Shown here: positions 2,517 through 50,832 of the stretch, piece after piece
Numbering within the stretch: the first letter of the stretch is position 1
How the letters are laid out: each line of letters opens with the position of its first letter
Assembly: GCA_016699915.1 (NCBI GenBank)
Contig: CP064990.1
Coordinates: forward strand, 256,671 to 320,670
DNA from: Neisseriales bacterium
Lineage (GTDB): Bacteria; Pseudomonadota; Gammaproteobacteria; Burkholderiales; Q3-R57-64
DNA length: 64,000 bases
Direction of reading: 5' to 3'
Notes under the pieces: generated by a model
What the model was told of the DNA's origin: nothing
Databases searched by the model: none
Seen by the model: only the letters and a program-made list of their open reading frames with translations
Translations under genes and position numbers: made by a program

Positions 2517-2669
<153 letters not shown>

Positions 2670-5532: not shown

Positions 5533-5547
5533 AATTTTTCCTAATTT

Positions 5548-18173: not shown

Positions 18174-18178
18174 CCTTT

Positions 18179-19111
18179 TTGCAATGTGGATATACCATGT
18201 CTATTAAATATTATATTTATTTGCATGCACGCAGTGCTAAAGACGCATTTGTTAAGATTGTTCATCAGCCATTCAGTTCTTTATTGTCACTTGCTACATT
18301 GTCGTTAGCGTTGCTATTGCCACTGATGCTTTATGCTGTGGTTGCCAGTGTGCAGGATTATGCACCACGCATGGCCGCCTCACCACAAATTACGTTGTTC
18401 ATGGATCTTTCTGCTGACGACGTGGCTTTGGGATCTGTTCATCAACAACTCAAGCAACATCGTTTGGTGGCACGTTATATATTTATTAGCAAAGACCAGG
18501 CGCTGGCTGAACTAGAGAGCCATGACGATATATCAGGTCTGAGGGACATATTACCTGATAATCCCTTACCCGATGCGTTCGTGGTTACCCCCACTGTTAC
18601 AGATTTGCAAAGTTTGTCATCATTGCAAAAAACCTTATCGAATTTGCCGGGTGTGCACCAAGCACAATTTGATATGCGCTGGGCACAACGGTTTTATGAG
18701 CTCATTAAACTGGGTCATCGTGCCGTATTACTTTTTGCTTTGGTTTTTGGTGCGGCTGTTGTGTTGATTACTTACAATATTATTTACATGCAAATTTTGG
18801 GTAAAAAGGAGGAAATTGTTGTATCCAAATTGATTGGAGCTAGCGATCACTTTATCCGCCGAGCCTTTTTTTATCACGCATGTTGGCAAGCGTTATTGGC
18901 TGCTCTTATCGCTTGGCTTGGCACCTTATGGGTTGCAGGAGCAGTGAATCCGGTGATTCATCATTTTGCTTCTCTATACCATGAAAAAATACTGCTACGC
19001 CCATTGTATTTTGACGAATTGACCCTATTTATTTTACTGACGGTTGCGCTGACTGTTTTGGGTGCACGCCTCGCGGTTGGTCAACATTTACGCCAACTAA
19101 AAGCCCACTAA
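18179..19111 (+). CDS. ftsX: cell division permease-like protein FtsX
   Basis: It follows ftsE directly. One N-terminal TM, a periplasmic domain and 3 C-terminal TM segments. The start is probably ATG 18197. Confidence 0.85.
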   Translation: MQCGYTMSIKYYIYLHARSAKDAFVKIVHQPFSSLLSLATLSLALLLPLMLYAVVASVQDYAPRMAASPQITLFMDLSADDVALGSVHQQLKQHRLVARYIFISKDQALAELESHDDISGLRDILPDNPLPDAFVVTPTVTDLQSLSSLQKTLSNLPGVHQAQFDMRWAQRFYELIKLGHRAVLLFALVFGAAVVLITYNIIYMQILGKKEEIVVSKLIGASDHFIRRAFFYHACWQALLAALIAWLGTLWVAGAVNPVIHHFASLYHEKILLRPLYFDELTLFILLTVALTVLGARLAVGQHLRQLKAH

Positions 19112-19184
19112 GGCAAAAGTTTTGAGATGTTGGCAGCACACCACGGTTTGTGTTAGAGTACGGTGGCAGGTGTTGTACAAATAA

Positions 19185-20081
19185 ATGAGGAACATGGAAG
19201 TGATGACTGAGATGAGGTTGCCTGTTTTGTCGGCTGGCGGTAGCCTGGAGCGTTATATCCACAGCGTAAACAGCATCCCGATGCTGTCAGTGGATGAAGA
19301 ATGTAGCTTGGCAGAGCGTTTTCAGAATCAGGGTGATTTGGAAGCGGCAAGAAAACTTGTTTTGTCTCACTTAAGGGTTGTTGTGTCGATTGCAAGAGGC
19401 TATGCGGGGTATGGTTTACCACAAGCTGATTTGATACAGGAAGGCAATATTGGTTTGATGAAGGCGGTTAAGCGTTTTCAACCGAACCGTGGCGTGCGCT
19501 TATTTTCTTTTGCGATCCATTGGATCAAGGCGGAGATTCATGAATTTGTCCTACGCAACTGGCGTTTGGTGCGTATTGCGACAACGAAATCCCAACGTAA
19601 ATTGTTTTTCAATATACGTAGCATGAAACGCAAGCTCACTGCGCTGACAGACGGAGAAGCACAGCGTATTGCTGATGAATTAGGTGTCAAGCGCGAGGAA
19701 GTATTGGAGATGGAAATGCGTCTTGCTGGGCAGGATATGACGTTATCAACGGATCATGCAGAAGATACCTATTATTCACCCATTCATTGGTTGTCAGACA
19801 GTGAGCAAGAGCCTATTCGGCAATTAGAACGCAAAGCGGATGATCGCTTGCAAGGAGAAGGATTACAGGCGGCTTTAAAAGCACTTGATGCAAGGAGTCG
19901 TCGTATCATTGAGGCGCGTTGGTTAGAACTTGACAAAACTGGCGAGTCTTCCACACTACATGATCTTGCCAAAGAATTGGGTATTTCAGCCGAGCGCGTT
20001 CGTCAAATTGAGCAAAAAGCCCTTACTAAAATGAAGAGCTTCTTTGCGCAAAAAGGCTTACTTCCCATGTCGCTGAATTGA
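19185..20081 (+). CDS. rpoH: RNA polymerase sigma-32 factor
   Basis: Region 2 'DLIQEGNIGLMKAVKRF' and RpoH box 'QRKLFFNIRS'. It follows ftsX as in many proteobacteria. The likely start is ATG 19203. Confidence 0.93.
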   Translation: MRNMEVMTEMRLPVLSAGGSLERYIHSVNSIPMLSVDEECSLAERFQNQGDLEAARKLVLSHLRVVVSIARGYAGYGLPQADLIQEGNIGLMKAVKRFQPNRGVRLFSFAIHWIKAEIHEFVLRNWRLVRIATTKSQRKLFFNIRSMKRKLTALTDGEAQRIADELGVKREEVLEMEMRLAGQDMTLSTDHAEDTYYSPIHWLSDSEQEPIRQLERKADDRLQGEGLQAALKALDARSRRIIEARWLELDKTGESSTLHDLAKELGISAERVRQIEQKALTKMKSFFAQKGLLPMSLN

Positions 20082-36920: not shown

Positions 36921-37622
36921 ATGTATAGTATGGATCCATTGGAAGTTAAAAAATTCGATCAATTAGCCCATGATTGGTGGGATCCATCTGGTGTTTTTTG
37001 TACGCTGCACACTCTTAATCCAGTGCGCTTGCAATATATGCAACGTTTTGTAAGTTGGTCGAATAAAACCGTATTGGATGTTGGATGCGGTGGTGGTATC
37101 TTGTCAGAAGCCATGGCTACACAGGGCGCCAGAGTAACTGGTATTGATTTATCCAGGTCATCCATTGCCGTGGCAAAACGCCATAGCCGAAAGATGACAA
37201 ATTCTATTGATTACCGGTGTATGGCAGTTGAAACATTGCTTAAGATCATGCCAAAGTCTTTTGATATTGTGGTTTGTATGGAAATGTTGGAGCACACAAC
37301 CGAACCACAGCATGTGGTACAGGCATGTGCTCGTTTGACCAAACCAAATGGTTGGGTATTTTTTTCAACAATTAACCGCAATTTGCCTGCATATTTGGGT
37401 GCTGTACTGGTTGCTGAATATGTGCTTGGATTATTGCCAAAGGGCATGCATCGCTATGAGCGTTTCATTACTCCTGCTGAGTTAATGGATATGGTACGCA
37501 ATACGAGTTCACTCATATTGCAAAACTTATCCGGTTTATTTTACAATCCCTTTAGTCGGTATTGTCGTTTTACCGAACGACCTACCATCAATTATTTTGC
37601 AGCATTAAAGAATGGTAAATAA
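36921..37622 (+). CDS. ubiG: bifunctional ubiquinone biosynthesis O-methyltransferase
   Basis: 'WWDPSGVF', 'VLDVGCGGGILSE', 'CMEMLEH' and 'FFSTINRN', collinear with E. coli UbiG. Confidence 0.92.
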   Translation: MYSMDPLEVKKFDQLAHDWWDPSGVFCTLHTLNPVRLQYMQRFVSWSNKTVLDVGCGGGILSEAMATQGARVTGIDLSRSSIAVAKRHSRKMTNSIDYRCMAVETLLKIMPKSFDIVVCMEMLEHTTEPQHVVQACARLTKPNGWVFFSTINRNLPAYLGAVLVAEYVLGLLPKGMHRYERFITPAELMDMVRNTSSLILQNLSGLFYNPFSRYCRFTERPTINYFAALKNGK

Positions 37623-37653
37623 TCTCATTATATTAAAAGATTGATTGTCCTTT

Positions 37654-38202
37654 TTAGCTTCTTACCCCCTGACTTAATCCCATTTCTCCCTTAAACACTT
37701 GATCTTGGTTTAATAAGATTTGCTGAAGGTTCGCTTTGATACGCATCACGGAAGATACGCCATGCTGTAATTGATAGTCTAGATTGACTTGTGTTGAAAA
37801 TGGTACAGCAATGCAGTTTGTAAACATAATTGATCGCTCGTAGTATAAGTGAACTCACCTTGTGTGCAGAAGTCCTCTAGAATGGATGGAGCAATCAGGG
37901 TAAAGGTTGTATGTTCTTGGTATTGTTTTCAATAACGGTGATATGGCTCGATGATCCAAAACCATAGTCTAAGGCAACGCAGGAAATCAAGGTACCCAAC
38001 TTGCTTGGCAATAGAATAATCCAACGTGCCTTTGTAAAACTGCGCTGATGAAGTGTTTGTTTTGCTAAAAGGTATCCTTATAGTGCCGATAGCCTAAATC
38101 AAAAGTAGGGCTAAAGGTTAAAACCACAAACATTTTTTCCAATTTTTTCCTCAAAGCACTCAAAGCAGTAATGCTACAACCAATCACCAATAAGTTACCC
38201 AT
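37654..38202 (-). pseudogene. ddl: probable heavily eroded D-alanine--D-alanine ligase remnant
   Basis: There is no ORF of 60 aa or more, yet minus-strand translation gives four collinear Ddl-like blocks in shifting frames. They are 'GCSITALSALRKKLEKM' (cf. SGVxASALSMDKLRSK), 'IRIPFS..FYKGTLDYSIAKQ' (cf. IRIQPSGTFYDYEAKY), 'QYQEHTTFTLIAPSIL...LQTALL' (cf. KYLSDETQYFCPAGL...LQALVL) and 'FSTQVNL...HGVSSVMRIKANLQQILL' (cf. LLEANT...AGMSFSQLVVRILE). The position directly downstream of murC is where ddl normally lies. Confidence 0.55.
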
Positions 38203-38309
38203 TAATATCAGATAAATAATTTTAATTACTAATGAAGTTTTTCGAGGAAAGGGGTCATTAATAAAAAAAACTTTGGTAGCGTGGGAGTATAGTAATTTTA
38301 CAGCCTCTT

Positions 38310-39728
38310 TTATAAGCGATTGGTAGCTGATTGTACAATGCAGTTAGGCACGCTGCTGATAGATCCAGCGCCCATTGTTACCACGACATCATTTGCTTCC
38401 ACCATATCCAATATTTGATCGGGGATTGCTCGGATGGATTCGATAAAAAGTGGCTCAACTTTACCTGCCACGCGAATCGCTCTTGCTAAGGCTCGGCTAT
38501 CCGACGCAATAAGTGGCATTTCGCCTGCCGCATATACTTCAGTTAATATCAAAATATCGGTACGTGACAACACGTGCACGAAATCTTCGAATAAATCTCG
38601 TGTACGTGTATAGCGGTGCGGCTGAAAAATTAGGATTAAACGTCTGCCAACAAAAGCATGCCGAAGCGCTAAAATAGTTGCCGAAATTTCAGTAGGATGA
38701 TGACTATAATCATCGATCAACGTAAAATACCCGTTGTGAACTGGTAAGTTGCCATAGGATTGAAAACGTCTACCCACTCCTGAGAAGCTTTCAAGCCCAA
38801 TTTTAATGATCTGTTCATCAACGCCACACTCTAAACCCACTGCAACGGCTGCTAGTGCATTCAGTATATTATGGTGCCCTGGCATATTGAGTGTTACAGG
38901 AAAACAGGGATCTTTTTGGTTGTCAAATAGACCTTGTATTACTACATCAAAACGTGTTTGCATACCTATTGTACGGATATTTTTTGCACATAAATTCGCT
39001 TGGCTATCTATACCATAAGTTGTGATCGGTTTTGCTATACTGGGTAATATTGATTGAATATGTGGATCATCTAAACAGAGTATTGCGCGTCCATAAAATG
39101 GCAAACGGTTCAAAAAATCAATAAAAGCTTGTTTGAGTTTATCAAAATCATGGTGATAGGTTGCCATGTGATCTGAATCAATGTTTGTTACAACAGCAAT
39201 AACTGGCGTTAAATATAAAAACGATGCATCCGATTCATCCGCTTCCACTAACATAAATTCTCCAAGCCCTAACTGTGCATTGGACCCAGCTGCCAACAGT
39301 TTTCCACCAATGATGAAAGTCGGATCCAAATTGGCTGCTGCTAATACCGACGCGGCCAGACTGGTAGTTGTTGTTTTGCCATGCGTGCCTGCAATCGCAA
39401 TGCCCTGCTTAAAACGCATTAATTCGGCTAACATCATGGCGCGTGGTACAACGGGAATGTGTGCATGGATTGCTGCGCATAATTCAGGATTAGTTGGCTC
39501 AATAGCGCTAGACACCACAACTACATCCGTAGGTTCCAAAAGTGTTGTTCGATGACCAATCACAATGTGAGCGCCCATTTTAATCAACCGCCCAACCAAT
39601 GGACTATCTGAAATATCCGAACCCGATATGGTATAACCCAGCTTTAGCAATACTTCAGCAATGCCGGACATGCCAATACCACCGATGCCGATAAAATGGA
39701 TATGTTTAATTTTATGTTTCATCATCAA
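38310..39728 (-). CDS. murC: UDP-N-acetylmuramate--L-alanine ligase
   Basis: 'IHFIGIGGIGMSGIAE' and 'AGTHGKTTTT'. 472 aa. Confidence 0.96.
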   Translation of the reverse strand: MMMKHKIKHIHFIGIGGIGMSGIAEVLLKLGYTISGSDISDSPLVGRLIKMGAHIVIGHRTTLLEPTDVVVVSSAIEPTNPELCAAIHAHIPVVPRAMMLAELMRFKQGIAIAGTHGKTTTTSLAASVLAAANLDPTFIIGGKLLAAGSNAQLGLGEFMLVEADESDASFLYLTPVIAVVTNIDSDHMATYHHDFDKLKQAFIDFLNRLPFYGRAILCLDDPHIQSILPSIAKPITTYGIDSQANLCAKNIRTIGMQTRFDVVIQGLFDNQKDPCFPVTLNMPGHHNILNALAAVAVGLECGVDEQIIKIGLESFSGVGRRFQSYGNLPVHNGYFTLIDDYSHHPTEISATILALRHAFVGRRLILIFQPHRYTRTRDLFEDFVHVLSRTDILILTEVYAAGEMPLIASDSRALARAIRVAGKVEPLFIESIRAIPDQILDMVEANDVVVTMGAGSISSVPNCIVQSATNRL

Positions 39729-39806
39729 AACTTTGTAATTAACTAAAGCGCTCTGTCATCTTTATCTGATTTTGCAATATCAACCAAGCATCGCTTAGCC
39801 TTTTTT

Positions 39807-40880
39807 CTAAGGCGGTAATAAGGATTCACAAATATCGGCGATGCGCTCGCACGCATTGATTGAGGCAATGCTACGTGCCGCATTGGCCATTTTTAGGCAT
39901 TGTGCTCGGGTTAGTTTGTTGAGCCATTGCGCCACATTGTGTGGTGAAAATTCTCTCTGCGGTACAATATGCGCCGCACCTGCAAGAGACAGTAATTGGG
40001 CGTTACGTGTTTGGTGATCATCTGCTGCAAAAGGATAGGGCACCAATAAACTCCCTACCCCTGCTGCCGCTAATTCTGCAACAGTTAATGCACCTGCTCG
40101 ACATAACACAATATCAGCTTTGGCGTACTCATCTGCAATATGATCAATAAAAGCACGGCAGTCTGCCTCAATGTTCAATTGTGCATAGCGATTATTGAGC
40201 GCATCAATTTGTTGAACACCTGCCTGATGTACAACATGTAAACGTTGCGCGTCAGGCAATAATAAGGCAAGCGCTTGCGGCAAAACGTCATTGAATATTT
40301 GAGCTCCTAAACTACCGCCGATCACCAGTAGGCGCAAAGCGCCTTCCCTAGCCTGAAAACGCTTGTCTGGATTGGGCAGTCTTGCAATAGCTGATCTAAC
40401 CGGATTACCCACGCAACCTTCAGGGTCAGAAAATACGCCTGGGAAAGCATATAACGTGCGATGGGCAAAATAAGATAATACTTTGTTAGTCAAGCCAGCA
40501 ACGGCATTTTGTTCGTGAATCACGAGGGGCTTACCCATTAAACGTACTGCAACAGCACCTGGAAATGCCGCATACCCGCCAAAACCAATGGCTACATCAA
40601 ATGGGCGTTTGATAAAAAGCTTTTGTGCATCGTAAATTGCTCGCGCAACAGTAAATGGTGCGAGACATTGTCGCATCAAACCATTGCCTCGTAAGCCGTG
40701 AATTGTGATGGTTTCTAGTTCAATACCATGCTGAGGGATCAGATGATTTTCCATTCCCATTTTGCTACCCAGCCATACCGTTTTCCAGCCACGATTACGT
40801 AATGTTTCGGCAACCGCTAAACCAGGAAAAATATGTCCACCAGTGCCACCCGCCATAATCATCGCCGTGTAGGTTTTCAT
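39807..40880 (-). CDS. murG: undecaprenyldiphospho-muramoylpentapeptide beta-N-acetylglucosaminyltransferase
   Basis: 'MAGGTGGHIFPGLAVA'. 357 aa, in dcw cluster context. Confidence 0.96.
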   Translation of the reverse strand: MKTYTAMIMAGGTGGHIFPGLAVAETLRNRGWKTVWLGSKMGMENHLIPQHGIELETITIHGLRGNGLMRQCLAPFTVARAIYDAQKLFIKRPFDVAIGFGGYAAFPGAVAVRLMGKPLVIHEQNAVAGLTNKVLSYFAHRTLYAFPGVFSDPEGCVGNPVRSAIARLPNPDKRFQAREGALRLLVIGGSLGAQIFNDVLPQALALLLPDAQRLHVVHQAGVQQIDALNNRYAQLNIEADCRAFIDHIADEYAKADIVLCRAGALTVAELAAAGVGSLLVPYPFAADDHQTRNAQLLSLAGAAHIVPQREFSPHNVAQWLNKLTRAQCLKMANAARSIASINACERIADICESLLPP

Positions 40881-42058
40881 GATGAAACCTTGTAGTATCC
40901 ATGCATAATGCGTTTATTTTCCCAATCCACCCTCAATACTATACAAAGCGCCACTAAATTAGCAACGAGAGCTGATCCACCAAATGACATCAATGGCATC
41001 GTCATACCTTTTGTTGGCAAAATTCCCATGCTAACGCCCATATTAAGAAACGCTTGTAACCCAATCCAAATACCAATGCCCTTAGCAACCAAAGCACCAT
41101 AATAACGCTCTAGCTTTCTGGCTTGTTCTCCAATACGAAAAGTGCGCCATACAATCCATGCATAAGTTGTAATCAGCAAGCAAACCCCAATCACACCAAA
41201 TTCTTCAGCAATGACAGCCATAATAAAATCCGTATGTGGTTCAGGTAAATACGCTAATTTTTGTATCCCACCACCTAATCCCATGCCAGACCACTTGCCT
41301 AATCCAAAGGCAATAAGCGAGTTGGTTAACTGATAACCCTTATCATAAGGGTCATCAAAAGGCGCAATAAATCCTAATACCCGACGCATCCGATAAGGTT
41401 CAATCAGGATAAGCAAAATTAATGTCACGAGTGCCAACAGTATTGAACCACTAAATACCCAACCATTTACACCGCCTAAAAATAGTAAACAAAAGATGAT
41501 GACTATAATAACAACCAATGCACCAAAATCAGGTTCGAGTAAGAGTAATACCCCAATAAGCAACATCGGCGCAATGGCTGGCAAAAACCCTCTTTGGATA
41601 TTATCCAATACCGTTTGTTTTCGTATCAAATAACTTGCTGTATAAAGAACACAAGCAAATTTCATCAATTCAGAAGGCTGAATGTGAAACCACAATAATG
41701 TTATCCAACGACGTGAACCATTGACTGTGTGCCCGATACCTGGCACCAAAACCAATACAAGCAATAACAACGCAACGCCAAAAATAGGCGTTGCGTATTG
41801 TTCCCAAATCCGTAATGGTACGCAAAACGCAATCCAACCGATGGTCATTGCTATGACAATGGACACGGCATGGTAATATAGGTAGTAGTAAGGATTACCA
41901 GTATGAGAAAAATGTTCAGCAACAGCAATTGAGGCAGAATACACCATCGTTAGGCTAAATAACAAAAGACCAAGCACAACAAAAGTCAGGGCTTCATCAT
42001 ATTTTTTAGTGTGGACAAGTGGTGGTTTTGTCCATATTTTTTTTAGCAGGTTGTACAT
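40877..42058 (-). CDS. ftsW: peptidoglycan glycosyltransferase / lipid II flippase FtsW (SEDS family)
   Basis: A ~10-TM protein. 'LPEPHTDFIMAVIAEEFG'. It lies between murD and murG. Confidence 0.93.
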   Translation of the reverse strand: MYNLLKKIWTKPPLVHTKKYDEALTFVVLGLLLFSLTMVYSASIAVAEHFSHTGNPYYYLYYHAVSIVIAMTIGWIAFCVPLRIWEQYATPIFGVALLLLVLVLVPGIGHTVNGSRRWITLLWFHIQPSELMKFACVLYTASYLIRKQTVLDNIQRGFLPAIAPMLLIGVLLLLEPDFGALVVIIVIIFCLLFLGGVNGWVFSGSILLALVTLILLILIEPYRMRRVLGFIAPFDDPYDKGYQLTNSLIAFGLGKWSGMGLGGGIQKLAYLPEPHTDFIMAVIAEEFGVIGVCLLITTYAWIVWRTFRIGEQARKLERYYGALVAKGIGIWIGLQAFLNMGVSMGILPTKGMTMPLMSFGGSALVANLVALCIVLRVDWENKRIMHGYYKVSS

Positions 42059-43404
42059 ATCGGTTTCAGGGATGACACCGCATCACGGAAGACTTGTGCA
42101 CGATGGGCATAGTTATTAAACATATCAAAACTAGCACAAGCAGGAGAAAGAAGAACCGTATCACCCGCTTTGGCTAAGTTGGTAGCTACCCATGTTGCTT
42201 CTTCCAATGTTTGGCAATGTTGAATAGGTAAGCGAAGCCCTGCAATGGCTTCATGAATCTTCTGCGCATCTTCTCCAATTAATACAACCGCTCTGCCGAC
42301 CTTTTGCAATGCGTTGTTGAGTAGGGAAAAGTCCTGCATTTTGCCTGCTCCTCCTGCGATCAGCACCACCTTTTTTGGCATACTCAATAGTGCCGCTTCG
42401 GTAGCAGCAACGTTGGTACCTTTTGAGTCATCAATGTAAGTTATCCCATTGATTTGATCAACCCGTTCAATGCGATGTGGCAAACCGCGAAAAGTTTTGA
42501 GACCAGTAAGTAATGGCGCACGAGGCAAGCGTAGTGCCTCACACAACGCTAAAGCAGCCAAAGCATTAGCCGCGTTATGTTTACCCAGCATTAGCAGTGC
42601 TTGCGTTGATAATAGAGATATGCCATCTGCTATGAGCACATCCCCTGCTGATACATGATAGTCCGCGTTTTGCCGCAGAGAAAATTGACGGATAACCCGC
42701 CCTTTTCTTTGCATCGCAAGACATAATGGGTCATCGGCATTAATTACCTGTACGCCTTGTCCATTAAAGATATGTGCTTTACTTGCCGCATAATGTAATA
42801 AGTCAGGATATCGATCAAGGTGATCTTCAGCAATATTCAACACAACTGCTGCATCAGCGTTTAAGGACTGTGTGACATCCAACTGAAAACTTGATAGTTC
42901 CAATACCCAATATGCTGGCATTCTGCCTTGCAGTTCTTTATCCCACAATGCCTTCAATATCGGCAACCCAATATTGCCTGCAACGACTGTATCACACTGG
43001 CAAATCCGACAGAGATGACCCACCCATTCTGTAACCGTACTTTTACCGTTTGAACCTGTAATTGCAATTACTTTTCCCGAAACATGATGCGAAAAAAGCC
43101 GTGCAAATAATTCAATATCGCCAAGAATGCTACCACCTTTTTGGCGAAAAGCCATGATATCTGGGTTAGCAAGCGGCACCCCTGGACTAACAAGCACATA
43201 ATCGGCTTGTTGCCAGTAACGATCTGCTAAGCGTTCTGTGTAAAGTGGTACGTTGGGTAATAACTGGGCAAATAACTCGCCTTTTGCTGGTATTTTTTGG
43301 TGATCAAACGCTACGACCTCTGCACCATGTTGTACGAGGTAAAAAGCACTTGCTAAGCCTGTATCTCCTAAACCCAGTACAATAAATTTTTTTCCAGCAA
43401 GCAT
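42043..43404 (-). CDS. murD: UDP-N-acetylmuramoylalanine--D-glutamate ligase
   Basis: 'VLGLGDTGLA' and 'ITGSNGKSTV'. 453 aa. Confidence 0.95.
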   Translation of the reverse strand: MLAGKKFIVLGLGDTGLASAFYLVQHGAEVVAFDHQKIPAKGELFAQLLPNVPLYTERLADRYWQQADYVLVSPGVPLANPDIMAFRQKGGSILGDIELFARLFSHHVSGKVIAITGSNGKSTVTEWVGHLCRICQCDTVVAGNIGLPILKALWDKELQGRMPAYWVLELSSFQLDVTQSLNADAAVVLNIAEDHLDRYPDLLHYAASKAHIFNGQGVQVINADDPLCLAMQRKGRVIRQFSLRQNADYHVSAGDVLIADGISLLSTQALLMLGKHNAANALAALALCEALRLPRAPLLTGLKTFRGLPHRIERVDQINGITYIDDSKGTNVAATEAALLSMPKKVVLIAGGAGKMQDFSLLNNALQKVGRAVVLIGEDAQKIHEAIAGLRLPIQHCQTLEEATWVATNLAKAGDTVLLSPACASFDMFNNYAHRAQVFRDAVSSLKPICTTC

Positions 43405-43407
43405 GAT

Positions 43408-44493
43408 TTATCGCAGTTTTAATGTTGTTAAACCGATTAGCACCAAAATCATGGTGATAATCCAAAAACGGACTACAATTTGTGTTTCTGTCCATCCCTT
43501 TAACTCATAGTGATGGTGTAAGGGTGCCATTTTAAAGATACGGCGACCCGTCAATTTAAAAGCGGTTACTTGTAAAACAACAGAAACCGCTTCTATTACA
43601 AATAATCCACCCATAATCAATAGCACAATTTCCTGACGCACGATCACAGCTACTACGCCTAGTGCAGCACCAAGTGGCAATGCGCCAGTATCGCCCATAA
43701 AAACTTGAGCCGGATAAGCGTTAAACCATAAAAATCCCAAACAAGCACCACAGATCGCTGCACAAAAAATTACCACTTCATGTGCGCCGGGCACGAAGGG
43801 CAATTGTAGATACTGAGCAAAAACAGTATGCCCTGCAACATAAGCAAATATTGCAAAACCAGCCGAAACTAAGACGACAGGTAGTGTTGCTAATCCGTCT
43901 AATCCATCGGTCAGATTAACAGCATTTGATGTACCAACAATCACTAAATAGGTTAATAAAAAAAAACCACAGGCACCCAAAGGATAGTTAATATGCTTGA
44001 AAAAAGGCACAATAAATTCGTAGGAGGCAGGTAATTTTGCGGTATAAAAAAGAAATATAGCAGCGACAATAGCCAAAACAGATTGCCAAAACATTTTGGC
44101 ATAAAATGATAGTCCACTGGTATGGTTATGCTTAATTTTGTGCCAATCATCGTAAAAACCTAATGTACCCATACCAAAGAGTATAGCAAGCAATAAAGCA
44201 ATATAATGATTCCCTAAGTCAGCCCATAGCAAAGTGCTTACCACAATGCATAACAAAATCAAAGCACCGCCCATGGTTGGTGTGCCCGTCTTGACAAGAT
44301 GCGATTGTGGGCCATCTGTACGAACAACTTGACCGACCTTAAATAGGGTCAGCTTACCAATGACATGCGTTCCCAATAATAGCGAGATAAAAAGAGCCGT
44401 TAAGCAAGCCATAACTGCCCGCAATGTCGTATAGTTTAGTACACCAAGACCGCGTATTTGCCCACCCCATAAATTCGCTAACCATAAAAACAT
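43408..44493 (-). CDS. mraY: phospho-N-acetylmuramoyl-pentapeptide transferase
   Basis: '[13 protein letters not shown]' and '[12 protein letters not shown]'. 361 aa. Confidence 0.97.
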
Positions 44494-44503
44494 CGCCGTT
44501 CAC

Positions 44504-45874
44504 CTAGTGTATCGTTCGTTGGGAAAAATATTGCACGACACGTTCCATTTTCATGGCACGCGAACCCTTGACTAAAACCGTACTTTGTTGATTAATCAAT
44601 ACTTCTAAACCCTGACATAAGGCTTTAATTGTCTCAAAGCAAAGCGCATTTTTGCCAAATGCTTTGGCAGCGCTTTGTGATAAAGTACCCAGTGTCAGTA
44701 GGTAATCGATCCCTTTTGCTTTGGCATAATATCCAATATCTTCGTGTTGTTGTTCAGCTTTTTCGCCTAATTCAGCCATATCACCCATGACCAAAATACG
44801 CGGTGTGCATCCGTTTGATGCTAATACATCAATTGCTGCTTTCATCGAATCCGGGTTAGCATTATAGGTGTCATCAATCCACAATCCACTGGCCATCTGC
44901 ATACTATTCAAGCGTCCTGGCGTACCTAAAAATAATGATAATCCTTGTGTAATGGTCAACAAAGGAACCTGCATTACGAACGCTGCAGTTGCCGCAGCTA
45001 ATGCATTATAAATATTATGTGCGCCTGGCATACGAAGCGTTACTGATGATATGCCTTGTGGCGTAACTAGGCTAAAGGTGCTGCTTAGCCCATTTAATTT
45101 GATATGGTCAGCATATACATCACCCTGATGTAACCCAAAATGGTAGCAAGTGTGCCCTTGTGCTTTGTGATCAAACAAAGTGGTATAGGGGTCGTCAGCA
45201 GGCATAATCGCAATACCAGAGCTATCTAGGTTTTCAAATATTTCAGCTTTTGCTGTTGCAATATCTCGTAGACTTGAAAAACCACCGCTCATGTGCGCAT
45301 GTCGGGCATTTAAAACCATGGCAATTGTAGGATGAGTCAATTGTGCTAAATAAGCAATTTCCCCCGCATGACTCATGCCCATTTCAATCACCGCATATTG
45401 ATGAAATGACGTCAAACCCAACAAGGTAAGTGGCAACCCAACATGGTTGTTAAAATTGCCTGGCGTTGCCCATACTGCATCGGCGCTACTTTGCACACTT
45501 AAAATTGACGCTAACATATTTTTAACTGTAGTTTTCCCGTTAGACCCGGTAATACCTACAACAGGTATTGCATGTAATTTTCGCCATTGTTGAGCCATAC
45601 GACCCAATTCATGGTAAGTGTCAGCCACTGGTAATACAAACTTATCAAAGCAAGAGTAGCCTTGATTAACCATCGCACCGATTGCACCTTGTTTGAAGGC
45701 TTGTCGAACAAAATCATGGCCATCAACATGCTGTCCTTTTAGCGCGACGAAAAAATCCCCTGTTTGCAATATACGTGTATCCGTAACAATTTTTCTGACA
45801 GGCTGATCCCAAGCAATGTGACTACTGACTTGATCATGTGCAATCAAACGCGCAATCCATCCCATCGTCATCAT
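44504..45874 (-). CDS. murF: UDP-N-acetylmuramoyl-tripeptide--D-alanyl-D-alanine ligase
   Basis: 'GITGSNGKTTVK'. 456 aa, between murE and mraY. Confidence 0.95.
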   Translation of the reverse strand: MMTMGWIARLIAHDQVSSHIAWDQPVRKIVTDTRILQTGDFFVALKGQHVDGHDFVRQAFKQGAIGAMVNQGYSCFDKFVLPVADTYHELGRMAQQWRKLHAIPVVGITGSNGKTTVKNMLASILSVQSSADAVWATPGNFNNHVGLPLTLLGLTSFHQYAVIEMGMSHAGEIAYLAQLTHPTIAMVLNARHAHMSGGFSSLRDIATAKAEIFENLDSSGIAIMPADDPYTTLFDHKAQGHTCYHFGLHQGDVYADHIKLNGLSSTFSLVTPQGISSVTLRMPGAHNIYNALAAATAAFVMQVPLLTITQGLSLFLGTPGRLNSMQMASGLWIDDTYNANPDSMKAAIDVLASNGCTPRILVMGDMAELGEKAEQQHEDIGYYAKAKGIDYLLTLGTLSQSAAKAFGKNALCFETIKALCQGLEVLINQQSTVLVKGSRAMKMERVVQYFSQRTIH

Positions 45875-47346
45875 GACTGCGTTCCCTGATACAATAATTG
45901 TTCAGCAATGTTAAAATCGGAAAAAGGCAGTTTATGGCCACCGATATCTTGGTGCTGTTCATGACCTTTTCCGGCAATCAGCACAATATCCTTTGCTGTT
46001 GCATGACGAATCGCCCACTCAATTGCCAAGGCACGGTCAACTTCAATATGCGACACATGATGCATACCCGATACAATATCTTGCACAATATGTTCTGATA
46101 CTTCAGTGCGTGGGTTATCACTTGTTACAACAGAAACATCAGCATTTTTTTCAACAACGTGACCCATCATGGGTCGTTTGCCATGGTCTCGATCCCCACC
46201 ACAGCCAAAGACACAGTACAGCTTGCCCTGTTCTGTCCGTAATTCAGATAATGATTTGAGGGCTGCTTGTAATGCATCGGGTGTGTGTGCGTAATCAATC
46301 ACCACGAGTGGTTTATTTCCTCCACCCAATCGCTGCATACGACCACAGACTGGCTCCATAAGGCTGAGCACATCACGCGCTTGAGATAATGGCACATCAT
46401 CCACACACAATGCAGCAAGACAAGCGAGTATATTGGAAATGTTAAAGCGCCCAATCAAGGAATTAGCAAGTTGAATATCACCCCATGGTGTATGAATATC
46501 AAGTACCATTCCCCCTTTAGAGACGTGGCAAGCAGTCAGATGAATATCACCTTGTTCCAGACCATATGTTAATAATTGCACAGCTTGTTGCTTAAGTTGT
46601 GCAGCTAATTGATAACCAAACTGGTCTGCTACATTAATAATGGCATAACGCAAGCTTTCCCAATAAAATAGCAGGCTTTTTGTGTAACCATAAGCTTGCA
46701 TAGTTTGATGGTAATCAAGATGATCCCTTGTCAAATTTGTAAAAATCGCTGTTTCAAATGGCACACCATTCACGCGCCCTTGATCTAGAGCATGAGAAGA
46801 AACTTCTATTGCTACAACTTTTGCTGATTGATGTGCAAAATGTGCTAATAATTGCTGCATGGTAATTGCGTCCGGCGTCGTATACGTGGTGTTGGACAAT
46901 TGGCTTAAAAAACCATTACCTACTGTACCGATAAGCGCTGCTTTCTTTTCCAAGATACCATAGGCTTGTGCTAACCAATGTGTAATGGAAGTTTTGCCAT
47001 TTGTGCCTGTTACGCCGATGATCCGCATGGCTTGGCTAGGATAATGCAATATATCTGCAACAATCATGCCAGCTTGTTGAGCAAGCTGCTTAACAGGCAA
47101 GTGATCAACTAACCAATTGGAGTTCCAACAAAAACCAGCATCATCTTCCCAAAAGACAACCGATGCACCTTGTCGAACCGCTTCGGCAATGTAATGTCTA
47201 CCGTCAGTATGATGACCTTGATAGGCCAAAAAAAGATCACCCTGCTTGACCAATCGGCTATCTGCCGTTACATGATTAACTTTATGGTAAAAAGGTCGGT
47301 AACGGGTCAAGTCGCATATCGGTAGCGGTTGTAAGCGACTTTTCAC
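45871..47346 (-). CDS. murE: UDP-N-acetylmuramoyl-L-alanyl-D-glutamate--2,6-diaminopimelate ligase
   Basis: 'GVTGTNGKTS' and 'TSDNPRTE' (DNPR motif). 491 aa. Confidence 0.95.
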   Translation of the reverse strand: MKSRLQPLPICDLTRYRPFYHKVNHVTADSRLVKQGDLFLAYQGHHTDGRHYIAEAVRQGASVVFWEDDAGFCWNSNWLVDHLPVKQLAQQAGMIVADILHYPSQAMRIIGVTGTNGKTSITHWLAQAYGILEKKAALIGTVGNGFLSQLSNTTYTTPDAITMQQLLAHFAHQSAKVVAIEVSSHALDQGRVNGVPFETAIFTNLTRDHLDYHQTMQAYGYTKSLLFYWESLRYAIINVADQFGYQLAAQLKQQAVQLLTYGLEQGDIHLTACHVSKGGMVLDIHTPWGDIQLANSLIGRFNISNILACLAALCVDDVPLSQARDVLSLMEPVCGRMQRLGGGNKPLVVIDYAHTPDALQAALKSLSELRTEQGKLYCVFGCGGDRDHGKRPMMGHVVEKNADVSVVTSDNPRTEVSEHIVQDIVSGMHHVSHIEVDRALAIEWAIRHATAKDIVLIAGKGHEQHQDIGGHKLPFSDFNIAEQLLYQGTQS

Positions 47347-47370
47347 ATGCTTCCTTTCTTTGTCAACAAG

Positions 47371-49086
47371 CTAGTCAGCAACAGTCAGTAGATTATTTAT
47401 AGACATATCAGGCGCTACGTCAAAACTACGCAAACAGCCATTCATAATGCGCGAAAAAATAGGACCTGCCACTGTTGTGCCGTAATAAAATCCAGCATGT
47501 GGCTCATCAATCATGACCGCGACAATAAAACGCGGTTTTGATAAAGCGGGCGCAAAACCGATAAATAAACTAGCATGTTTGTTGGGTTGATAGACACCGT
47601 TTTCAAGCTTACGTACCGTACCCGATTTTCCGGCTACGTGGTAACCCGATATTTGTATACTAGGCTGCCCAACAATGGTCAGCATTTGTCGCATTTGTCT
47701 GGCTGTACTATTAGCAATGACTTGCTCTCCCTCAGCTGGCATCGATACCTTAGCAAAAGAAACGGGCATTAACTTACCGCTAGTTGTAAAAATGGTATAG
47801 GCTCTGGCCATTTGTAATAAACTGGCCGCGACACCATACCCAAAAGACATCGTTGCTTGTTCTATAGGTCGCCAATTAACTGGGTTGCGTAGCCTGCCTG
47901 CGCTTTCCCCTGGAAAACCTGAATCCAATGAACGACCAAAACCGACGGTATGATAAAAATGCCACATCTCACGTGAACTAAACATGAGTGCAAGTTTGGA
48001 AACACCAACATTAGAGGATTTTTGTACAATGTTAGCCACATCCAAGCTGCGATGGGTTTTAACATCCCGCACCACAGCGCCATTAATAGTGTAGCTATTG
48101 GTATTCAGTACAGTATGTGGCGTTACTTTTCCGCTATCAATAGCCTTTGAAACCAAGATTGGCTTAATGGTTGAGCCTGGTTCTGTAAGATCAGTAATTG
48201 CACTATTGCGCCATTGTAGTGAACGCGTAGTTTGGCGATTATTAGGGTTATAAGAGGGATAATTTGCCATGGCTAAAATTTCGCCTGTTTGAGCATCCAG
48301 CACAACGACACTACCAGATTTGGCCTTGTTTTCTACTACGCCACGCCTAAGCTCACGATAAGCTAAATACTGGAGTTTCTGATCCATGGACAAGATAAGT
48401 TTTTGCCCATTTTTTGGTAATGTCACATCGGTCAAATCATCAACAATATGACCTAGTCGATCTTTAAGCACAACCCTTTTACCATTTTGCCCGGCTAGCT
48501 TATCGTTGTATGCCAACTCTAGACCTTCTTGACCTATTTTATCCACTCCTGTAAAACCGACTGCATGTGCGAATAATTCGCCGGTTGGGTAAAAACGCCG
48601 ATACTCAACTTGACTGGCAATACCTGGAATACCCAATTGCATCACTCGGTTAGCAAGTTCTGGTGCAATGTGACGTTTGATGTAAACAAATTCTCGCTTT
48701 TTATCAGCCAATTTTGCCTGAATAGTGCTCGGCAAGATGTTAAGTAAATGCGCTAATCGCTTTAATTGTTGATGTGACACTTTTTCCATGCTTGACGGGC
48801 TAGCCCAAATTGATTCCACACGTGCACTCACTGCTAACAAGGCACCATTTCGGTCTGTAATAACACCACGCGTTGCATGTAAAGTCAGCTCACGACAAAA
48901 ACGTGCCTCCCCCTGATTTTGTAAGAAATGCCCATTGCACAACAAAATGTAAAAAGCGCGAACCAATAACACTAAAAACAATGCGATAAAGATAAAGAGA
49001 ACAATACGAGACCGTTTAGACTGTTTATCTAATGGTGCAGGCTGTTTGCCGCTATAGCGAAAGTTTGTGTAAGTATAGCTACTCAT
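47371..49086 (-). CDS. ftsI: peptidoglycan D,D-transpeptidase FtsI (PBP3)
   Basis: SxxK 'GSTIKP', SxN 'SSNVG' and KSG 'AGKSGTV'. An N-terminal TM anchor. Confidence 0.95.
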   Translation of the reverse strand: MSSYTYTNFRYSGKQPAPLDKQSKRSRIVLFIFIALFLVLLVRAFYILLCNGHFLQNQGEARFCRELTLHATRGVITDRNGALLAVSARVESIWASPSSMEKVSHQQLKRLAHLLNILPSTIQAKLADKKREFVYIKRHIAPELANRVMQLGIPGIASQVEYRRFYPTGELFAHAVGFTGVDKIGQEGLELAYNDKLAGQNGKRVVLKDRLGHIVDDLTDVTLPKNGQKLILSMDQKLQYLAYRELRRGVVENKAKSGSVVVLDAQTGEILAMANYPSYNPNNRQTTRSLQWRNSAITDLTEPGSTIKPILVSKAIDSGKVTPHTVLNTNSYTINGAVVRDVKTHRSLDVANIVQKSSNVGVSKLALMFSSREMWHFYHTVGFGRSLDSGFPGESAGRLRNPVNWRPIEQATMSFGYGVAASLLQMARAYTIFTTSGKLMPVSFAKVSMPAEGEQVIANSTARQMRQMLTIVGQPSIQISGYHVAGKSGTVRKLENGVYQPNKHASLFIGFAPALSKPRFIVAVMIDEPHAGFYYGTTVAGPIFSRIMNGCLRSFDVAPDMSINNLLTVAD

Positions 49087-49360
49087 TGATCAAGCTTTTA
49101 TTAGCATTAATAACAACCGTTTCTTCTTTGCTTGGTATGTGCATACCTAAACGTGTGGTTGCTGCTTTATCCACTAAGTTATGTGCTCCCCAAGTACTTT
49201 GTTCCAGCTGCAGTTGTTCATACTCTGCATTGAGTTGTTCTATTTGGTTTTGTATCCTATCTAATTGGCTATAAATGGAACGCGCTTTATGCTGTGTAGT
49301 CACTACCCAAAGTGCAAAACCAACGATAGCAATTAATAAAACACCATTCAATTTCTTCAA
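49079..49360 (-). CDS. ftsL: cell division protein FtsL
   Basis: 93 aa with one TM followed by a coiled coil ('QIEQLNAEYEQLQLEQS'). It lies between rsmH and ftsI. Confidence 0.88.
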   Translation of the reverse strand: MKKLNGVLLIAIVGFALWVVTTQHKARSIYSQLDRIQNQIEQLNAEYEQLQLEQSTWGAHNLVDKAATTRLGMHIPSKEETVVINANKSLINE

Positions 49361-49365
49361 GCCAT

Positions 49366-50319
49366 CTACTCTCTTAACAAAGCGTGGCTACGCCTTGCAA
49401 CACGAAGTACAGCAGAACGCGCCCGCGGGTTCTGCTGTACTTCTTCTTTGCTTGCATGCTTGACACGATCAACGCAGTCCAATAATGGTTGGGCTAATTC
49501 ATGACTCCTTACTTTGACCCAACGGGGTAAATGATCAGCCCGGCTATAACAACGCATGAATCGCTTAACGATGCGATCTTCGAGCGAATGAAAGCTAATC
49601 ACTACGAGTTTTCCACCACACTTTAATCGCCGCACTATTTTCGGCAATACGGTCGCTAGAGAATTTAGCTCATCATTGATGTAAATTCTTAATGCTTGAA
49701 ATGTCCTTGTTGCAGGATGCTGTCCTGCTTCATAATGTTTAATTTGCTTCGCAACCAATGTTGCTAACTGACCCGTTGTAGCGATAGGGGACACAGCACG
49801 CTGTTTGACAATCGCACCAGCAATAGATTTTGCAAATCGCTCTTCTCCATAAGTACGAATCACCTGCTCAATATCTGATTGCGTGGCGTTTGATAACCAT
49901 TCGGCTGCCGTCATGCCACTACTCGTATCCATACGCATATCAAGCGGTGCATCAAAACGAAAACTAAATCCACGCTTTGCATCATCTAATTGCATTGAAG
50001 ACATTCCTAAGTCATAAAGCGCACCATCAATTTGGTCTATACCCATACGATCTAATACCAACTCAACATGCACAAAATCACTATGTACCATATCAAATCG
50101 TCCATCTTCCTTAGACAGTGCAGATCCAATAGCAACCGCATACGGATCTTTATCTAACGCAATAAGACGTCCCGATGCACTCAATCTGTCTAATATGGAT
50201 TGACTATGCCCACCATATCCAAAAGTGTTATCTAAATACACACCTGCTTTTTTGGTAATCAATGCGTTAGCCGATTCGCTACACAACACACTTTGATGGT
50301 GTAATGCCTGATCATTCAT
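49366..50319 (-). CDS. rsmH: 16S rRNA (cytosine1402-N4)-methyltransferase
   Basis: 'DNTFGYGGHS' and 'ISFHSLEDRIVK'. Confidence 0.96.
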   Translation of the reverse strand: MNDQALHHQSVLCSESANALITKKAGVYLDNTFGYGGHSQSILDRLSASGRLIALDKDPYAVAIGSALSKEDGRFDMVHSDFVHVELVLDRMGIDQIDGALYDLGMSSMQLDDAKRGFSFRFDAPLDMRMDTSSGMTAAEWLSNATQSDIEQVIRTYGEERFAKSIAGAIVKQRAVSPIATTGQLATLVAKQIKHYEAGQHPATRTFQALRIYINDELNSLATVLPKIVRRLKCGGKLVVISFHSLEDRIVKRFMRCYSRADHLPRWVKVRSHELAQPLLDCVDRVKHASKEEVQQNPRARSAVLRVARRSHALLRE

Positions 50320-50762
50320 AATGAAAACTCATCCAGTGCCATGTTTAAAACTTTTCTGTCTAGAATCAAAGCCGCTTCCGTCTCCGCTTTCCAGTCTTGT
50401 GCGTTCCATAACTCAAAACGGTTACCCATTCCAACAAGTCCCACTTCTTTGTTTAAAAAAACCAATTCCCGTAAACAAGTAGGAATCAAAATACGTCCAA
50501 AACCATCCATTTCCAAGGTTTCAGCATGCCCAAGCATTAAACGCTGATAAGCTTTAAGCATAGGGTTGCCGACGGGTAACGCAATGAGTTTTTGCTCAAC
50601 AAGTCGCCATTGTGATTCTGGGTAAATCAAAAGATGGTTTTTTGCTTCTAGGGTAACCACTAACGTTGGGCTAAAATTTGTCAATAACACTTCTCGATGT
50701 TTAGCGGGGATCGCTAAGCGCCCTTTATTATCCAAATTGAGAATATTTACACCGCCAAACAT
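50316..50762 (-). CDS. mraZ: transcriptional regulator MraZ
   Basis: Duplicated DxxxR motifs, 'DNKGRLAIP' and 'DGFGRILIP'. 148 aa. Confidence 0.96.
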   Translation of the reverse strand: MFGGVNILNLDNKGRLAIPAKHREVLLTNFSPTLVVTLEAKNHLLIYPESQWRLVEQKLIALPVGNPMLKAYQRLMLGHAETLEMDGFGRILIPTCLRELVFLNKEVGLVGMGNRFELWNAQDWKAETEAALILDRKVLNMALDEFSL

Positions 50763-50832
50763 GTCATGAACCTCATTGACTGAAGTTGGTCAATACATGC
50801 CCCACCCTAAAAAAAGTAGTACGTGCATATTT

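What the first reader, a model, noticed from the sequence alone, without database searches (positions are those of the whole stretch)
37623..38309. dcw cluster ends at murC: ddl reduced to a frameshifted relic, and ftsQ-ftsA-ftsZ missing from the locus
The cluster mraZ-rsmH-ftsL-ftsI-murE-murF-mraY-murD-ftsW-murG-murC is intact and tightly coupled. The ~690 bp downstream of murC, where ddl-ftsQ-ftsA-ftsZ canonically follow, has no ORF of 60 aa or more and runs straight into the convergent ubiG. Translating the minus strand gives four Ddl-like blocks in the correct order but in different frames and with large gaps: 'ALSALRKKLEK'; 'IRIP..FY..DYSIAKQ'; 'QYQEHTTFTLIAPSIL..LQTALL'; 'QVNL..GVSS..LQQILL'. 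That would make it a ~550-bp relic of a ~900-bp gene. murF, which consumes D-Ala-D-Ala, is still intact. So either a second ddl exists elsewhere, the dipeptide is obtained another way, or the pathway is in the process of being lost. The position of ftsQAZ is also unresolved. This is the most biologically consequential anomaly I see in the window.
Basis: partly seen in the sequence, partly recalled or inferred. Interest (0 to 1): 0.7.

Follow-up and report, generated by a model that had tools for sequence, protein, structure and literature searches.

The report
Split dcw cluster, no ddl relic
The 687 bases after murC are not a broken ddl gene but an unrecognisable, species-specific spacer at the point where a chromosome rearrangement cut the cell-wall/division gene cluster in two; ftsZ is intact elsewhere in the same genome, so this is an ordinary rearranged cluster.

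Summary
The descriptive part of the finding holds. mraZ to murC (50789-38310, minus strand) is intact. It is followed by 687 bp with no ORF over 57 aa, then by the convergent ubiG. The window contains no ddl, ftsQ, ftsA or ftsZ.

BLASTX, TBLASTN and a Ddl profile of 77-82 sequences score the spacer no better than shuffled sequence. Pfam and NCBIfam find nothing in any frame.

The window comes from an NCBI MAG named 'Neisseriales bacterium' (912,463-bp contig). Its nearest relatives with context (MurC 70-73% identical) read murC-ftsQ-ftsA-ftsZ-moaC with no ddl, while relatives at 65-67% keep ddl. So ddl left the cluster before this species arose.

FtsZ of the same MAG (QQS16508.1, 396 aa) lies on the same contig. 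All dcw genes, murF included, have dN/dS of 0.08-0.20 against sister species.

The window's cumulative G-C count peaks inside the spacer, and homology to sister species stops at or within 17 bp of the murC stop codon. The best reading is a rearrangement junction, probably an inversion breakpoint. Fewer stop codons on the minus strand hint at an eroded, unidentifiable ORF. Where ddl now lies was not resolved.

The parts
37623..38309 (.). 687-bp spacer between the convergent ubiG and murC. It has no recognisable gene or RNA and is specific to this species.
   Evidence: ORFs of at most 57 aa. No hit in Pfam, NCBIfam or PHROGs in six frames, none in Rfam, none to plasmids or phages, and none to 100 related loci. 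Homology to sister species L091, L092 and L093 stops at or within 17 bp of the murC stop.
38310..39728 (-). murC, the last gene of the truncated dcw cluster. The NCBI record starts it at 39722; its 470 aa are identical to QQS17028.1.
   Evidence: TIGR01082 scores 520 bits against a cutoff of 335. 100% identical to QQS17028.1.
39807..50789 (-). mraZ-rsmH-ftsL-ftsI-murE-murF-mraY-murD-ftsW-murG, all intact.
   Evidence: NCBIfam hits. FtsL is 64% identical to that of L082. dN/dS is 0.08-0.20 against sister species for the genes from ftsI to murG (mraZ, rsmH and ftsL were not tested).
36921..37622 (+). ubiG, convergent on murC. It is the first gene of the block that has the opposite GC-skew polarity.
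   Evidence: TIGR01983 scores 261 bits against a cutoff of 103. Equals QQS16873.1.
37654..37827 (-). 57-aa ORF annotated by NCBI as hypothetical protein IPK86_01415 (QQS16874.1). It is an orphan and probably not a real gene.
   Evidence: it is the only member of its 90% cluster. The codon-usage score of the 66-aa stop-free stretch that holds it is 0.132, below the 95th percentile of the null (0.148). No family hit.
38065..38202 (-). 45-aa ORF called on Logan contigs. It lies inside the 80-aa stop-free stretch 38068-38307, which has the most gene-like codon usage in the spacer.
   Evidence: Codon score 0.224, against 0.251 (sd 0.097) for real genes; 3% of simulated spacers reach this value. A full HMMER scan of 1.84 billion representatives finds only the ORF itself.
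38117..38117 (.). Maximum of the cumulative G-C count of the whole 64-kb window, marking a switch of GC-skew polarity.
   Evidence: Left of the spacer, genes on both strands have positive plus-strand skew (25 of 27). To the right, 15 of 16 minus-strand genes are negative. None of 10,000 block permutations reached the observed range.

Best explanation
The 687 bp are a non-coding junction left by a chromosomal rearrangement that cut the dcw cluster immediately after murC. They are not a decayed ddl.

Inferred order of events:
1. The ancestral betaproteobacterial order was mraZ...murC-ddl-ftsQ-ftsA-ftsZ-lpxC.
2. In the common ancestor of this MAG and its 70-73% relatives, ddl and lpxC left the cluster, giving murC-ftsQ-ftsA-ftsZ-moaC.
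3. In the lineage of this species and its 90-92% sisters, a break directly after the murC stop codon separated mraZ-murC from ftsQAZ. It joined murC tail-to-tail to a block (polA, thrB, sodB, ubiG) whose GC skew has the opposite polarity.

The simplest single event for step 3 is an inversion with one breakpoint between murC and ftsQ. FtsZ now lies elsewhere on the same contig, apparently some hundreds of genes away. Step 3 is inferred, not shown.

In functional terms, transcription of the mraZ-murC unit now simply ends in this spacer, and ftsQAZ must be expressed from their own promoters. The cell-wall pathway is fully in use, so ddl must be encoded elsewhere; this too is inferred.

The spacer carries a weak statistical trace (few stops on the minus strand, gene-like codon usage in one 80-codon stretch). 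That trace may be the eroded remains of an unidentifiable minus-strand gene, or it may be chance.
For: NO DDL SIGNAL
- Searches find nothing. The positive controls work: the Ddl profile scores 580-586 bits on relatives, and the FtsQ profile finds 30 bits in the short L082 gap.

DDL ABSENT AFTER MURC IN THE NEAREST RELATIVES
- Absent in L082, L083 and L090. Present in L085, L086 and L089.

FTSZ ELSEWHERE IN THE SAME MAG
- FtsZ is on the same 912,463-bp contig (QQS16508.1). Nine neighbouring genes in the window run QQS16870-16878 in series.

THE BREAK
- Homology to sister species stops at the murC stop codon in L092/L093 and 17 bp after it in L091.
- The 651 bp that follow murC in L092 are gene-less, 34.7% GC and unrelated to this spacer. 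With dS of only 0.25-0.39, orthologous neutral DNA should still align.

GC SKEW
- The polarity switch falls exactly in the spacer and does not depend on gene orientation.
- Relatives with an unbroken murC-ftsQAZ show no switch there.

NOT AN ARTEFACT
- Independent assemblies confirm the sequence.

PATHWAY IN USE
- dN/dS is 0.08-0.20. FtsI and PBP1A are intact.
Against: - The type of rearrangement cannot be seen from 64 kb. Protein accession order is only a rough proxy for position: MurC's own number, QQS17028, is out of series, and the locus-tag ordinal (01415) does not fit a simple count.
- A skew switch is also what a true replication terminus looks like.
- Stop codons are depleted on the minus strand (35 against 55; P = 0.0044 against shuffles; frame 2 has only 6 stops). 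One stretch has gene-like codon usage. So 'purely non-coding' may be too strong.
- The composite six-frame search of the large protein collection missed ORFs known to be in that collection. It does not count as a negative result.
- ddl was not located.
Confidence: 0.7

Rival explanations
1. The spacer is a frameshifted relic of ddl.
For: Canonical position downstream of murC. No long ORF. The minus strand is somewhat depleted in stops.
Against: No Ddl similarity by BLASTX, TBLASTN, a Ddl profile with --max, Pfam or NCBIfam in any frame; scores equal those of shuffles. The nearest relatives already lack ddl between murC and ftsQ. The spacer is not even shared with sister species that are 90-92% identical.
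Confidence: 0.02
2. The spacer marks the true replication terminus. The skew switch is the stable terminus, and the variable, gene-poor DNA reflects recombination and turnover typical of terminus regions. The dcw break would be a by-product.
For: The cumulative G-C maximum lies at 38117 and the polarity change is of the terminus type. The flip of skew at the murC end is also seen in the 651-bp tail of sister L092, so the junction is not very recent. High turnover between sister species.
Against: No dif-like XerCD site anywhere in the 64 kb: at best 9 mismatches of 28 to the E. coli site, and 6 of 28 to a degenerate consensus, inside genes. On the left side 17 of 27 genes lie on the strand that the skew marks as lagging, including dnaK, grpE, ileS and polA, which is unusual for an equilibrated replichore. 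This reading is compatible with the rearrangement explanation rather than exclusive of it.
Confidence: 0.25
3. The spacer encodes one or two real small orphan proteins: the 57-aa protein annotated by NCBI, and/or a 45-aa protein with a hydrophobic N-terminus and a lipobox-like VIGC.
For: PGAP annotates QQS16874.1. The Logan gene caller called the 45-aa ORF. Gene-like codon usage in 38068-38307. Stop depletion on the minus strand.
Against: No homologue in 1.84 billion representatives for the 80-aa stretch that contains the 45-aa ORF. The 57-aa ORF is the only member of its 90% cluster. The region is absent in sister species. No convincing Shine-Dalgarno sequence by eye. The two substitutions against L081 both change the amino acid in that frame. 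The statistics are marginal after multiple testing (P about 0.03).
Confidence: 0.1
4. The spacer is a decayed ftsQ. In the nearest relatives ftsQ follows murC directly and is of similar length (212-234 aa).
For: Position and size match a reading of about 217 codons in minus frame 2 with only four internal stops. There is a hydrophobic segment near the 5' end.
Against: An FtsQ profile (81 sequences) finds FtsQ N-termini in the short gaps of the relatives at 30 bits. In the spacer it scores at most -2.7 bits. TBLASTN with the relatives' FtsQ is negative. An intact ftsZ elsewhere suggests the ftsQAZ block moved as a unit.
Confidence: 0.03
5. The junction is a chimeric join or an indel-ridden stretch of the MAG assembly.
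For: MAGs can be chimeric. The contig of L081 ends inside the spacer, at 37961.
Against: L081 matches 37961-41070 with no indels. A 3925-bp Logan contig is listed for a PolA fragment, a UbiG of the same 90% cluster and the exact 45-aa ORF, and the exact 57-aa ORF is also on a Logan contig. Together they span ubiG, spacer and murC.
Confidence: 0.03

Closest known systems
Canonical proteobacterial dcw cluster (E. coli order mraZ-rsmH-ftsL-ftsI-murE-murF-mraY-murD-ftsW-murG-murC-ddlB-ftsQ-ftsA-ftsZ-lpxC)
   Same: The first eleven genes are in the same order and orientation and are tightly packed.
   Different: The cluster stops after murC. In this genome ddl, ftsQ, ftsA, ftsZ and lpxC are not contiguous with it. 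Relatives at 65-67% MurC identity still have the canonical order.
Rearranged or split dcw clusters, described in the literature for bacteria that are not rod-shaped or Gram-negative (discussed in PMC10214165, which cites Tamames 2001 and related work)
   Same: Loss of gene-order conservation within dcw while the genes themselves are retained.
   Different: Here the split can be dated within a narrow uncultured Neisseriales lineage. It coincides with a GC-skew polarity switch. The cell shape of the organism is unknown.
Unnamed metagenomic relatives L082/L083 (JGI 3300035180/81) and L090 (ENA ERZ27250493)
   Same: The same clade (MurC 70-73%, FtsI 73%, MraY 81% identical). They share the absence of ddl after murC and of lpxC after ftsZ.
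   Different: They keep murC-ftsQ-ftsA-ftsZ-moaC-recC-recB contiguous, with uniform skew. The window genome does not.
D-alanine--D-alanine ligase pseudogenes, or MurC-Ddl fusions of Chlamydiae (PMC10214165)
   Same: Only the position downstream of murC.
   Different: No Ddl-like sequence in the spacer. MurC is of ordinary length (470-472 aa), so there is no fusion.

Membership tests
Ddl (D-alanine--D-alanine ligase, Pfam PF01820/PF07478) pseudogene | Detectable sequence similarity to Ddl in at least one frame, with blocks collinear with the protein | tested here: not met
   BLASTX against 77-82 betaproteobacterial Ddl sequences, TBLASTN, and a Ddl profile with --max. The best minus-strand score is -3.7 bits, the same as shuffles. 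Pfam and NCBIfam return nothing at E <= 10.
Ddl (D-alanine--D-alanine ligase, Pfam PF01820/PF07478) pseudogene | An intact ddl at the orthologous position in the closest relatives | tested here: not met
   L082, L083 and L090 (70-73% MurC identity) have murC followed directly by ftsQ. Only relatives at 65-67% have ddl there.
Canonical dcw cluster | mraZ through murC in conserved order, intact | tested here: met
Canonical dcw cluster | ddl-ftsQ-ftsA-ftsZ contiguous downstream of murC | tested here: not met
   None of them within the 64 kb. FtsZ of the same MAG is elsewhere on the contig.
FtsQ pseudogene | Similarity to the POTRA or FtsQ C-terminal domains in some frame | tested here: not met
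   The FtsQ profile scores at most -2.7 bits in the spacer. The positive control scores 30 bits in the L082 gap.
Replication terminus (dif region) | Switch of GC-skew polarity of the terminus type | tested here: met
   Cumulative G-C maximum at 38117. None of 10,000 permutations reached the observed range.
Replication terminus (dif region) | A 28-bp XerC/XerD dif site nearby | tested here: not met
   Best matches in the window have 9 of 28 mismatches (E. coli dif) or 6 of 28 (degenerate consensus), and lie inside genes. A divergent dif, or one outside the window, is not excluded.
Known non-coding RNA or mobile element | Match to an Rfam family, a tRNA, a repeat, or plasmid or phage DNA | tested here: not met

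The most novel reading that the evidence does not exclude
This uncultured Neisseriales clade may have lost ddl (and lpxC) altogether rather than moved them. It still keeps murF, ftsI and PBP1A under purifying selection. It would then need D-Ala-D-Ala from a non-Ddl enzyme or from outside the cell. The two precise gaps flanking ftsQAZ in the relatives (no ddl, no lpxC) look more like deletions than like two separate relocations.
Probability: 0.05. Interest if true: 0.75.

Novelty: new member of a known kind. Interest (0 to 1): 0.15.

Why it matters
It matters little beyond this lineage. dcw clusters are known to break up in some bacteria, and this is one more documented case. It is unusual only in how well it can be dated, by comparing relatives at 65%, 70-73% and 90-93% MurC identity, and in coinciding with a GC-skew polarity switch.

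The practical value is negative. There is no evidence that D-Ala-D-Ala synthesis or FtsZ-based division is decaying in this organism. The peptide 'blocks' read by eye were chance.

If the whole genome truly lacked ddl, that would be interesting. Nothing here points that way.

Tried and rejected
DDL
- Tested and rejected.

FTSQ, FTSA, FTSZ, MURB AND LPXC RELICS
- Tested in the spacer or window and rejected.

OTHER KNOWN FEATURES OF THE SPACER
- Rfam, tRNA/tmRNA, promoter and terminator scans and RNA folding of the gene ends gave nothing.
- Repeats within the spacer, and between the spacer and the window, gave nothing.
- Plasmid and phage DNA searches gave nothing.

LARGE PROTEIN SEARCHES
- The composite six-frame query against the 5.8-billion protein collection returned nothing. 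This is not a valid negative, because exact 45-aa and 57-aa ORFs known to be in the collection were missed.
Only the 80-aa stretch could be run, and it found only itself.

UBIG RELATIVES
- Searching metagenomes for UbiG relatives, to learn ubiG's ancestral neighbour, gave only distant loci (at most 52% identity) and no match to the spacer.

FETCHING THE GENOME'S OWN RECORD
- Exact look-ups of the window's own MurC, UbiG and MraY, and of QQS17028.1, found no contig on record. The genome's own record could not be fetched.
- Contigs of the closest sisters end 66 bp (L091), 78 bp (L093) or 651 bp (L092) after murC.

LITERATURE AND DIF
- Literature searches for the run and for the locus-tag prefix found nothing useful.
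- The dif search was negative.

DDL ELSEWHERE

Full report
WHAT IS AT THE COORDINATES

The interval 37623-38309 lies between the stop codon of ubiG (36921-37622, plus strand; TIGR01983, 261 bits) and the stop codon of murC (38310-39728, minus strand; TIGR01082, 520 bits). The two genes converge.

Upstream of murC on the minus strand lie murG, ftsW, murD, mraY, murF, murE, ftsI, ftsL, rsmH and mraZ. All are intact, closely spaced or overlapping, and strongly matched by NCBIfam models.

The spacer has no start-to-stop ORF longer than 57 aa, and its longest stop-free stretch is 80 aa.

IS IT A DDL RELIC?

No. I collected 80 betaproteobacterial murC loci and used them for three tests:
- BLASTX of the spacer against every ORF in them gave nothing better than E = 0.4, and the top hits were antisense frames.
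- TBLASTN of Ddl, FtsQ, FtsA, FtsZ, MurB and LpxC against the whole window gave nothing in the spacer. Elsewhere the only hits with E below 1e-3 were weak FtsA matches to a 653-aa ORF at 3586-5547 that I take to be dnaK (not scanned against any family library).
- A Ddl profile built from 77-82 sequences, run with all filters off on the six frames, scored -3.7 bits at best on the minus strand. The best score in each of 200 shuffles averaged -2.9 (sd 0.9) bits.

The same profile scores 580-586 bits on real Ddl in related loci. An FtsQ profile run the same way picks up 30 bits from the few dozen N-terminal FtsQ codons in the short murC-ftsQ gap of a relative. The method therefore has power. Pfam and NCBIfam scans of all six frames at E <= 10 found no family.

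WHOSE GENOME IS IT, AND WHAT DO RELATIVES HAVE HERE?

The window's MurC is 100% identical to QQS17028.1, named 'MAG... [Neisseriales bacterium]', on a contig of 912,463 bp.

Nine consecutive window genes carry serial accessions:
- PolA: QQS16870
- ThrB: QQS16871
- SodB: QQS16872
- UbiG: QQS16873
- a 57-aa hypothetical protein, IPK86_01415, at 37654-37827: QQS16874
- MurG: QQS16875
- FtsW: QQS16876
- MurD: QQS16877
- MraY: QQS16878

NCBI's annotation therefore also places nothing but a small hypothetical protein in the spacer.

The nearest relatives with readable context are metagenomic contigs L082/L083 (MurC 73% identical) and L090 (70%). They read ...murG-murC-ftsQ-ftsA-ftsZ-moaC-recC-recB, with no ddl and no lpxC. 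Relatives at 65-67% (L085, L086, L089) have the canonical murC-ddl-ftsQ-ftsA-ftsZ-lpxC. By parsimony, ddl left the cluster in an ancestor of this clade. A fresh ddl pseudogene is therefore not expected here.

WHERE ARE FTSQAZ?

They are not in the window. Searching with the FtsZ of L082 returned, third from the top, 'MAG: cell division protein FtsZ [Neisseriales bacterium]'. It is QQS16508.1, 396 aa, 78% identical, and its only contig is 912,463 bp long. This is the same contig that carries the window.

FtsZ is therefore intact and lies elsewhere on this replicon. Its accession number is 366 below that of the spacer ORF. That suggests a distance of some hundreds of genes on the ubiG side. Accession order is an imperfect proxy, however: MurC's own number is out of series, and the locus-tag ordinal does not fit a simple count.

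WHAT IS THE SPACER?

Four observations point to a rearrangement junction.

1. Homology stops abruptly in sister species. They are 90-92% identical in DNA across the dcw genes, yet lose homology at the murC stop codon (L092, L093) or 17 bp after it (L091). The 651 bp that follow murC in L092 are gene-less, 34.7% GC and unrelated to this spacer or to anything else in the window. Synonymous divergence between these genomes is only 0.25-0.39, so orthologous neutral DNA should still align. The sequences have been replaced, not merely diverged.

2. The GC skew flips here. The cumulative G-C count of the whole 64 kb peaks at 38117, inside the spacer. To the left, genes on both strands have positive plus-strand skew (25 of 27). 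To the right, 15 of 16 minus-strand genes have negative skew. None of 10,000 block permutations reached the observed range. The switch is therefore not an effect of gene orientation.

3. Unbroken relatives show no flip. Those with a continuous murC-ftsQAZ have no polarity change at the end of murC, whereas the short tail of L092 flips too.

4. The junction is real. An independent short-read contig (L081, run DRR274965) matches 37961-41070 at 99.9% without indels. A 3925-bp Logan contig is the longest contig listed for a PolA fragment, a UbiG of the same 90% cluster and the exact 45-aa ORF at 38065-38202, and the exact 57-aa ORF is also recorded from Logan.

The simplest model is an inversion with one breakpoint between murC and ftsQ. 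It would carry ftsQAZ to the far end of the inverted block and bring ubiG tail-to-tail with murC. This step is inferred.

A true replication terminus would give the same local skew pattern. I found no dif-like site in the window. In addition, most left-side genes sit on the strand that the skew marks as lagging. I therefore rank the terminus reading second, and it does not exclude the first.

IS ANYTHING ENCODED IN THE SPACER?

Nothing known is encoded there:
- no Rfam family, tRNA or terminator;
- no repeats;
- no plasmid or phage similarity;
- no PHROG of note.

There is a weak statistical trace of former coding on the minus strand:
- It has 35 stops against 55 on the plus strand (shuffles give 46.6 and 48.0; P for the difference is 0.0044). 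Frame 2 has only 6 stops in 229 codons.
- The 80-codon stretch 38068-38307 has codon usage like real genes (0.224, against 0.251 with sd 0.097). Three per cent of simulated spacers reach this value.

That stretch has no homologue among 1.84 billion representative proteins other than its own 45-aa ORF. The region is missing in sister species, and the two substitutions against L081 both change the amino acid. I read this as, at most, the eroded remains of an unidentifiable gene. A functional orphan peptide is possible but unlikely.

One caveat applies. The composite six-frame query of the larger protein collection failed to recover ORFs known to be in that collection, so it is not counted as evidence.

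IS THE PATHWAY DECAYING?

No. Against the two sister species, dN/dS is 0.08-0.13 for murC, murD, murE, mraY, murG, ftsW and ftsI, and 0.18-0.20 for murF. The window also encodes an intact class A PBP (58869-61256) in addition to FtsI. From general knowledge, both are DD-transpeptidases that need D-Ala-D-Ala-terminated donor peptides.

A ddl gene elsewhere in the genome is therefore by far the most likely situation.

COMPARISON WITH WHAT IS KNOWN, AND VERDICT

Break-up of the dcw cluster is well documented outside rod-shaped Gram-negative bacteria (PMC10214165 and the works it cites). This is one more case, in an uncultured Neisseriales lineage. It can be dated by comparison of relatives and coincides with a skew switch.

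The proposed ddl relic is not real, ftsZ is not missing from the genome, and nothing indicates loss of the pathway. Interest is low.

The only reading that would be notable is true absence of ddl (and lpxC) from the clade. The evidence does not exclude it, but nothing supports it either.

Noticed in passing
window 2405-2760 (+), best part about 2530-2670: An isolated fragment of 23S rRNA, matching model positions from about 2500 to about 2700 almost to the letter and including the sarcin-ricin loop sequence AGUACGAGAGGACCGG. It scores 59-63 bits, E about 1e-16. It is not part of an rRNA operon. It overlaps the 5' end of an ORF (2490-3329) whose remainder matches only the first half of an MFS transporter model. 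This looks like a scrap of decayed or rearranged DNA.
   Followed up: partly
L082 14777-15358 and L090 14913-15492: In the closest relatives, lpxC and the small genes that follow ftsZ in canonical loci (L085, L089) are missing as well. ftsZ is followed directly by moaC. So both genes that flank ftsQAZ (ddl and lpxC) were removed in this clade. Whether they were moved or lost is unknown.
   Followed up: partly
L092 7600-8250 (sister species, Logan ERR15459718): The 651 bp after murC in a genome 90.5% identical across dcw are gene-less, 34.7% GC, of opposite skew, and unrelated to the window's spacer or to any fetched locus. The DNA after murC turns over quickly in this lineage.
   Followed up: partly
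L092 6166-7599 / protein P0123: MurC of this sister species is 477 aa. Its C-terminus reads ...NHLKCLVNT instead of ...NRL, so the stop codon has shifted at the very point where homology ends.
   Followed up: no
window 3586-34628, left block: 16 of 17 minus-strand genes left of the spacer have a C-rich coding strand. They include ispH, ileS, ribF, degP, lnt and polA, and a 653-aa ORF at 3586-5547 that I take to be dnaK from a weak FtsA-family TBLASTN hit and its GrpE neighbour (it was not scanned against a family library). So 63% of genes in that block lie on the strand that the skew marks as lagging. This is unusual and may bear on the history of the block.
   Followed up: no
window 38310-39728 (murC): In the NCBI record the MurC protein accession (QQS17028.1) is out of series with its neighbours (QQS16873-16878). 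The accession and locus-tag ordinals also do not fit a simple count, so accession numbers are an unreliable guide to position in this record.
   Followed up: no
window 16570-20081: ftsY and ftsX, then rpoH, lie 18-21 kb from the spacer. A 193-codon stop-free stretch at 17524-18106 between ftsY and ftsX was not identified; I presume it is ftsE. Division genes other than ftsQAZ are therefore present and intact near by.
   Followed up: no
tool behaviour: A composite six-frame query with X at the stops returned no hit from the large protein collection, although exact 45-aa and 57-aa matches are in that collection. Such composite queries should not be trusted as negatives.
   Followed up: yes
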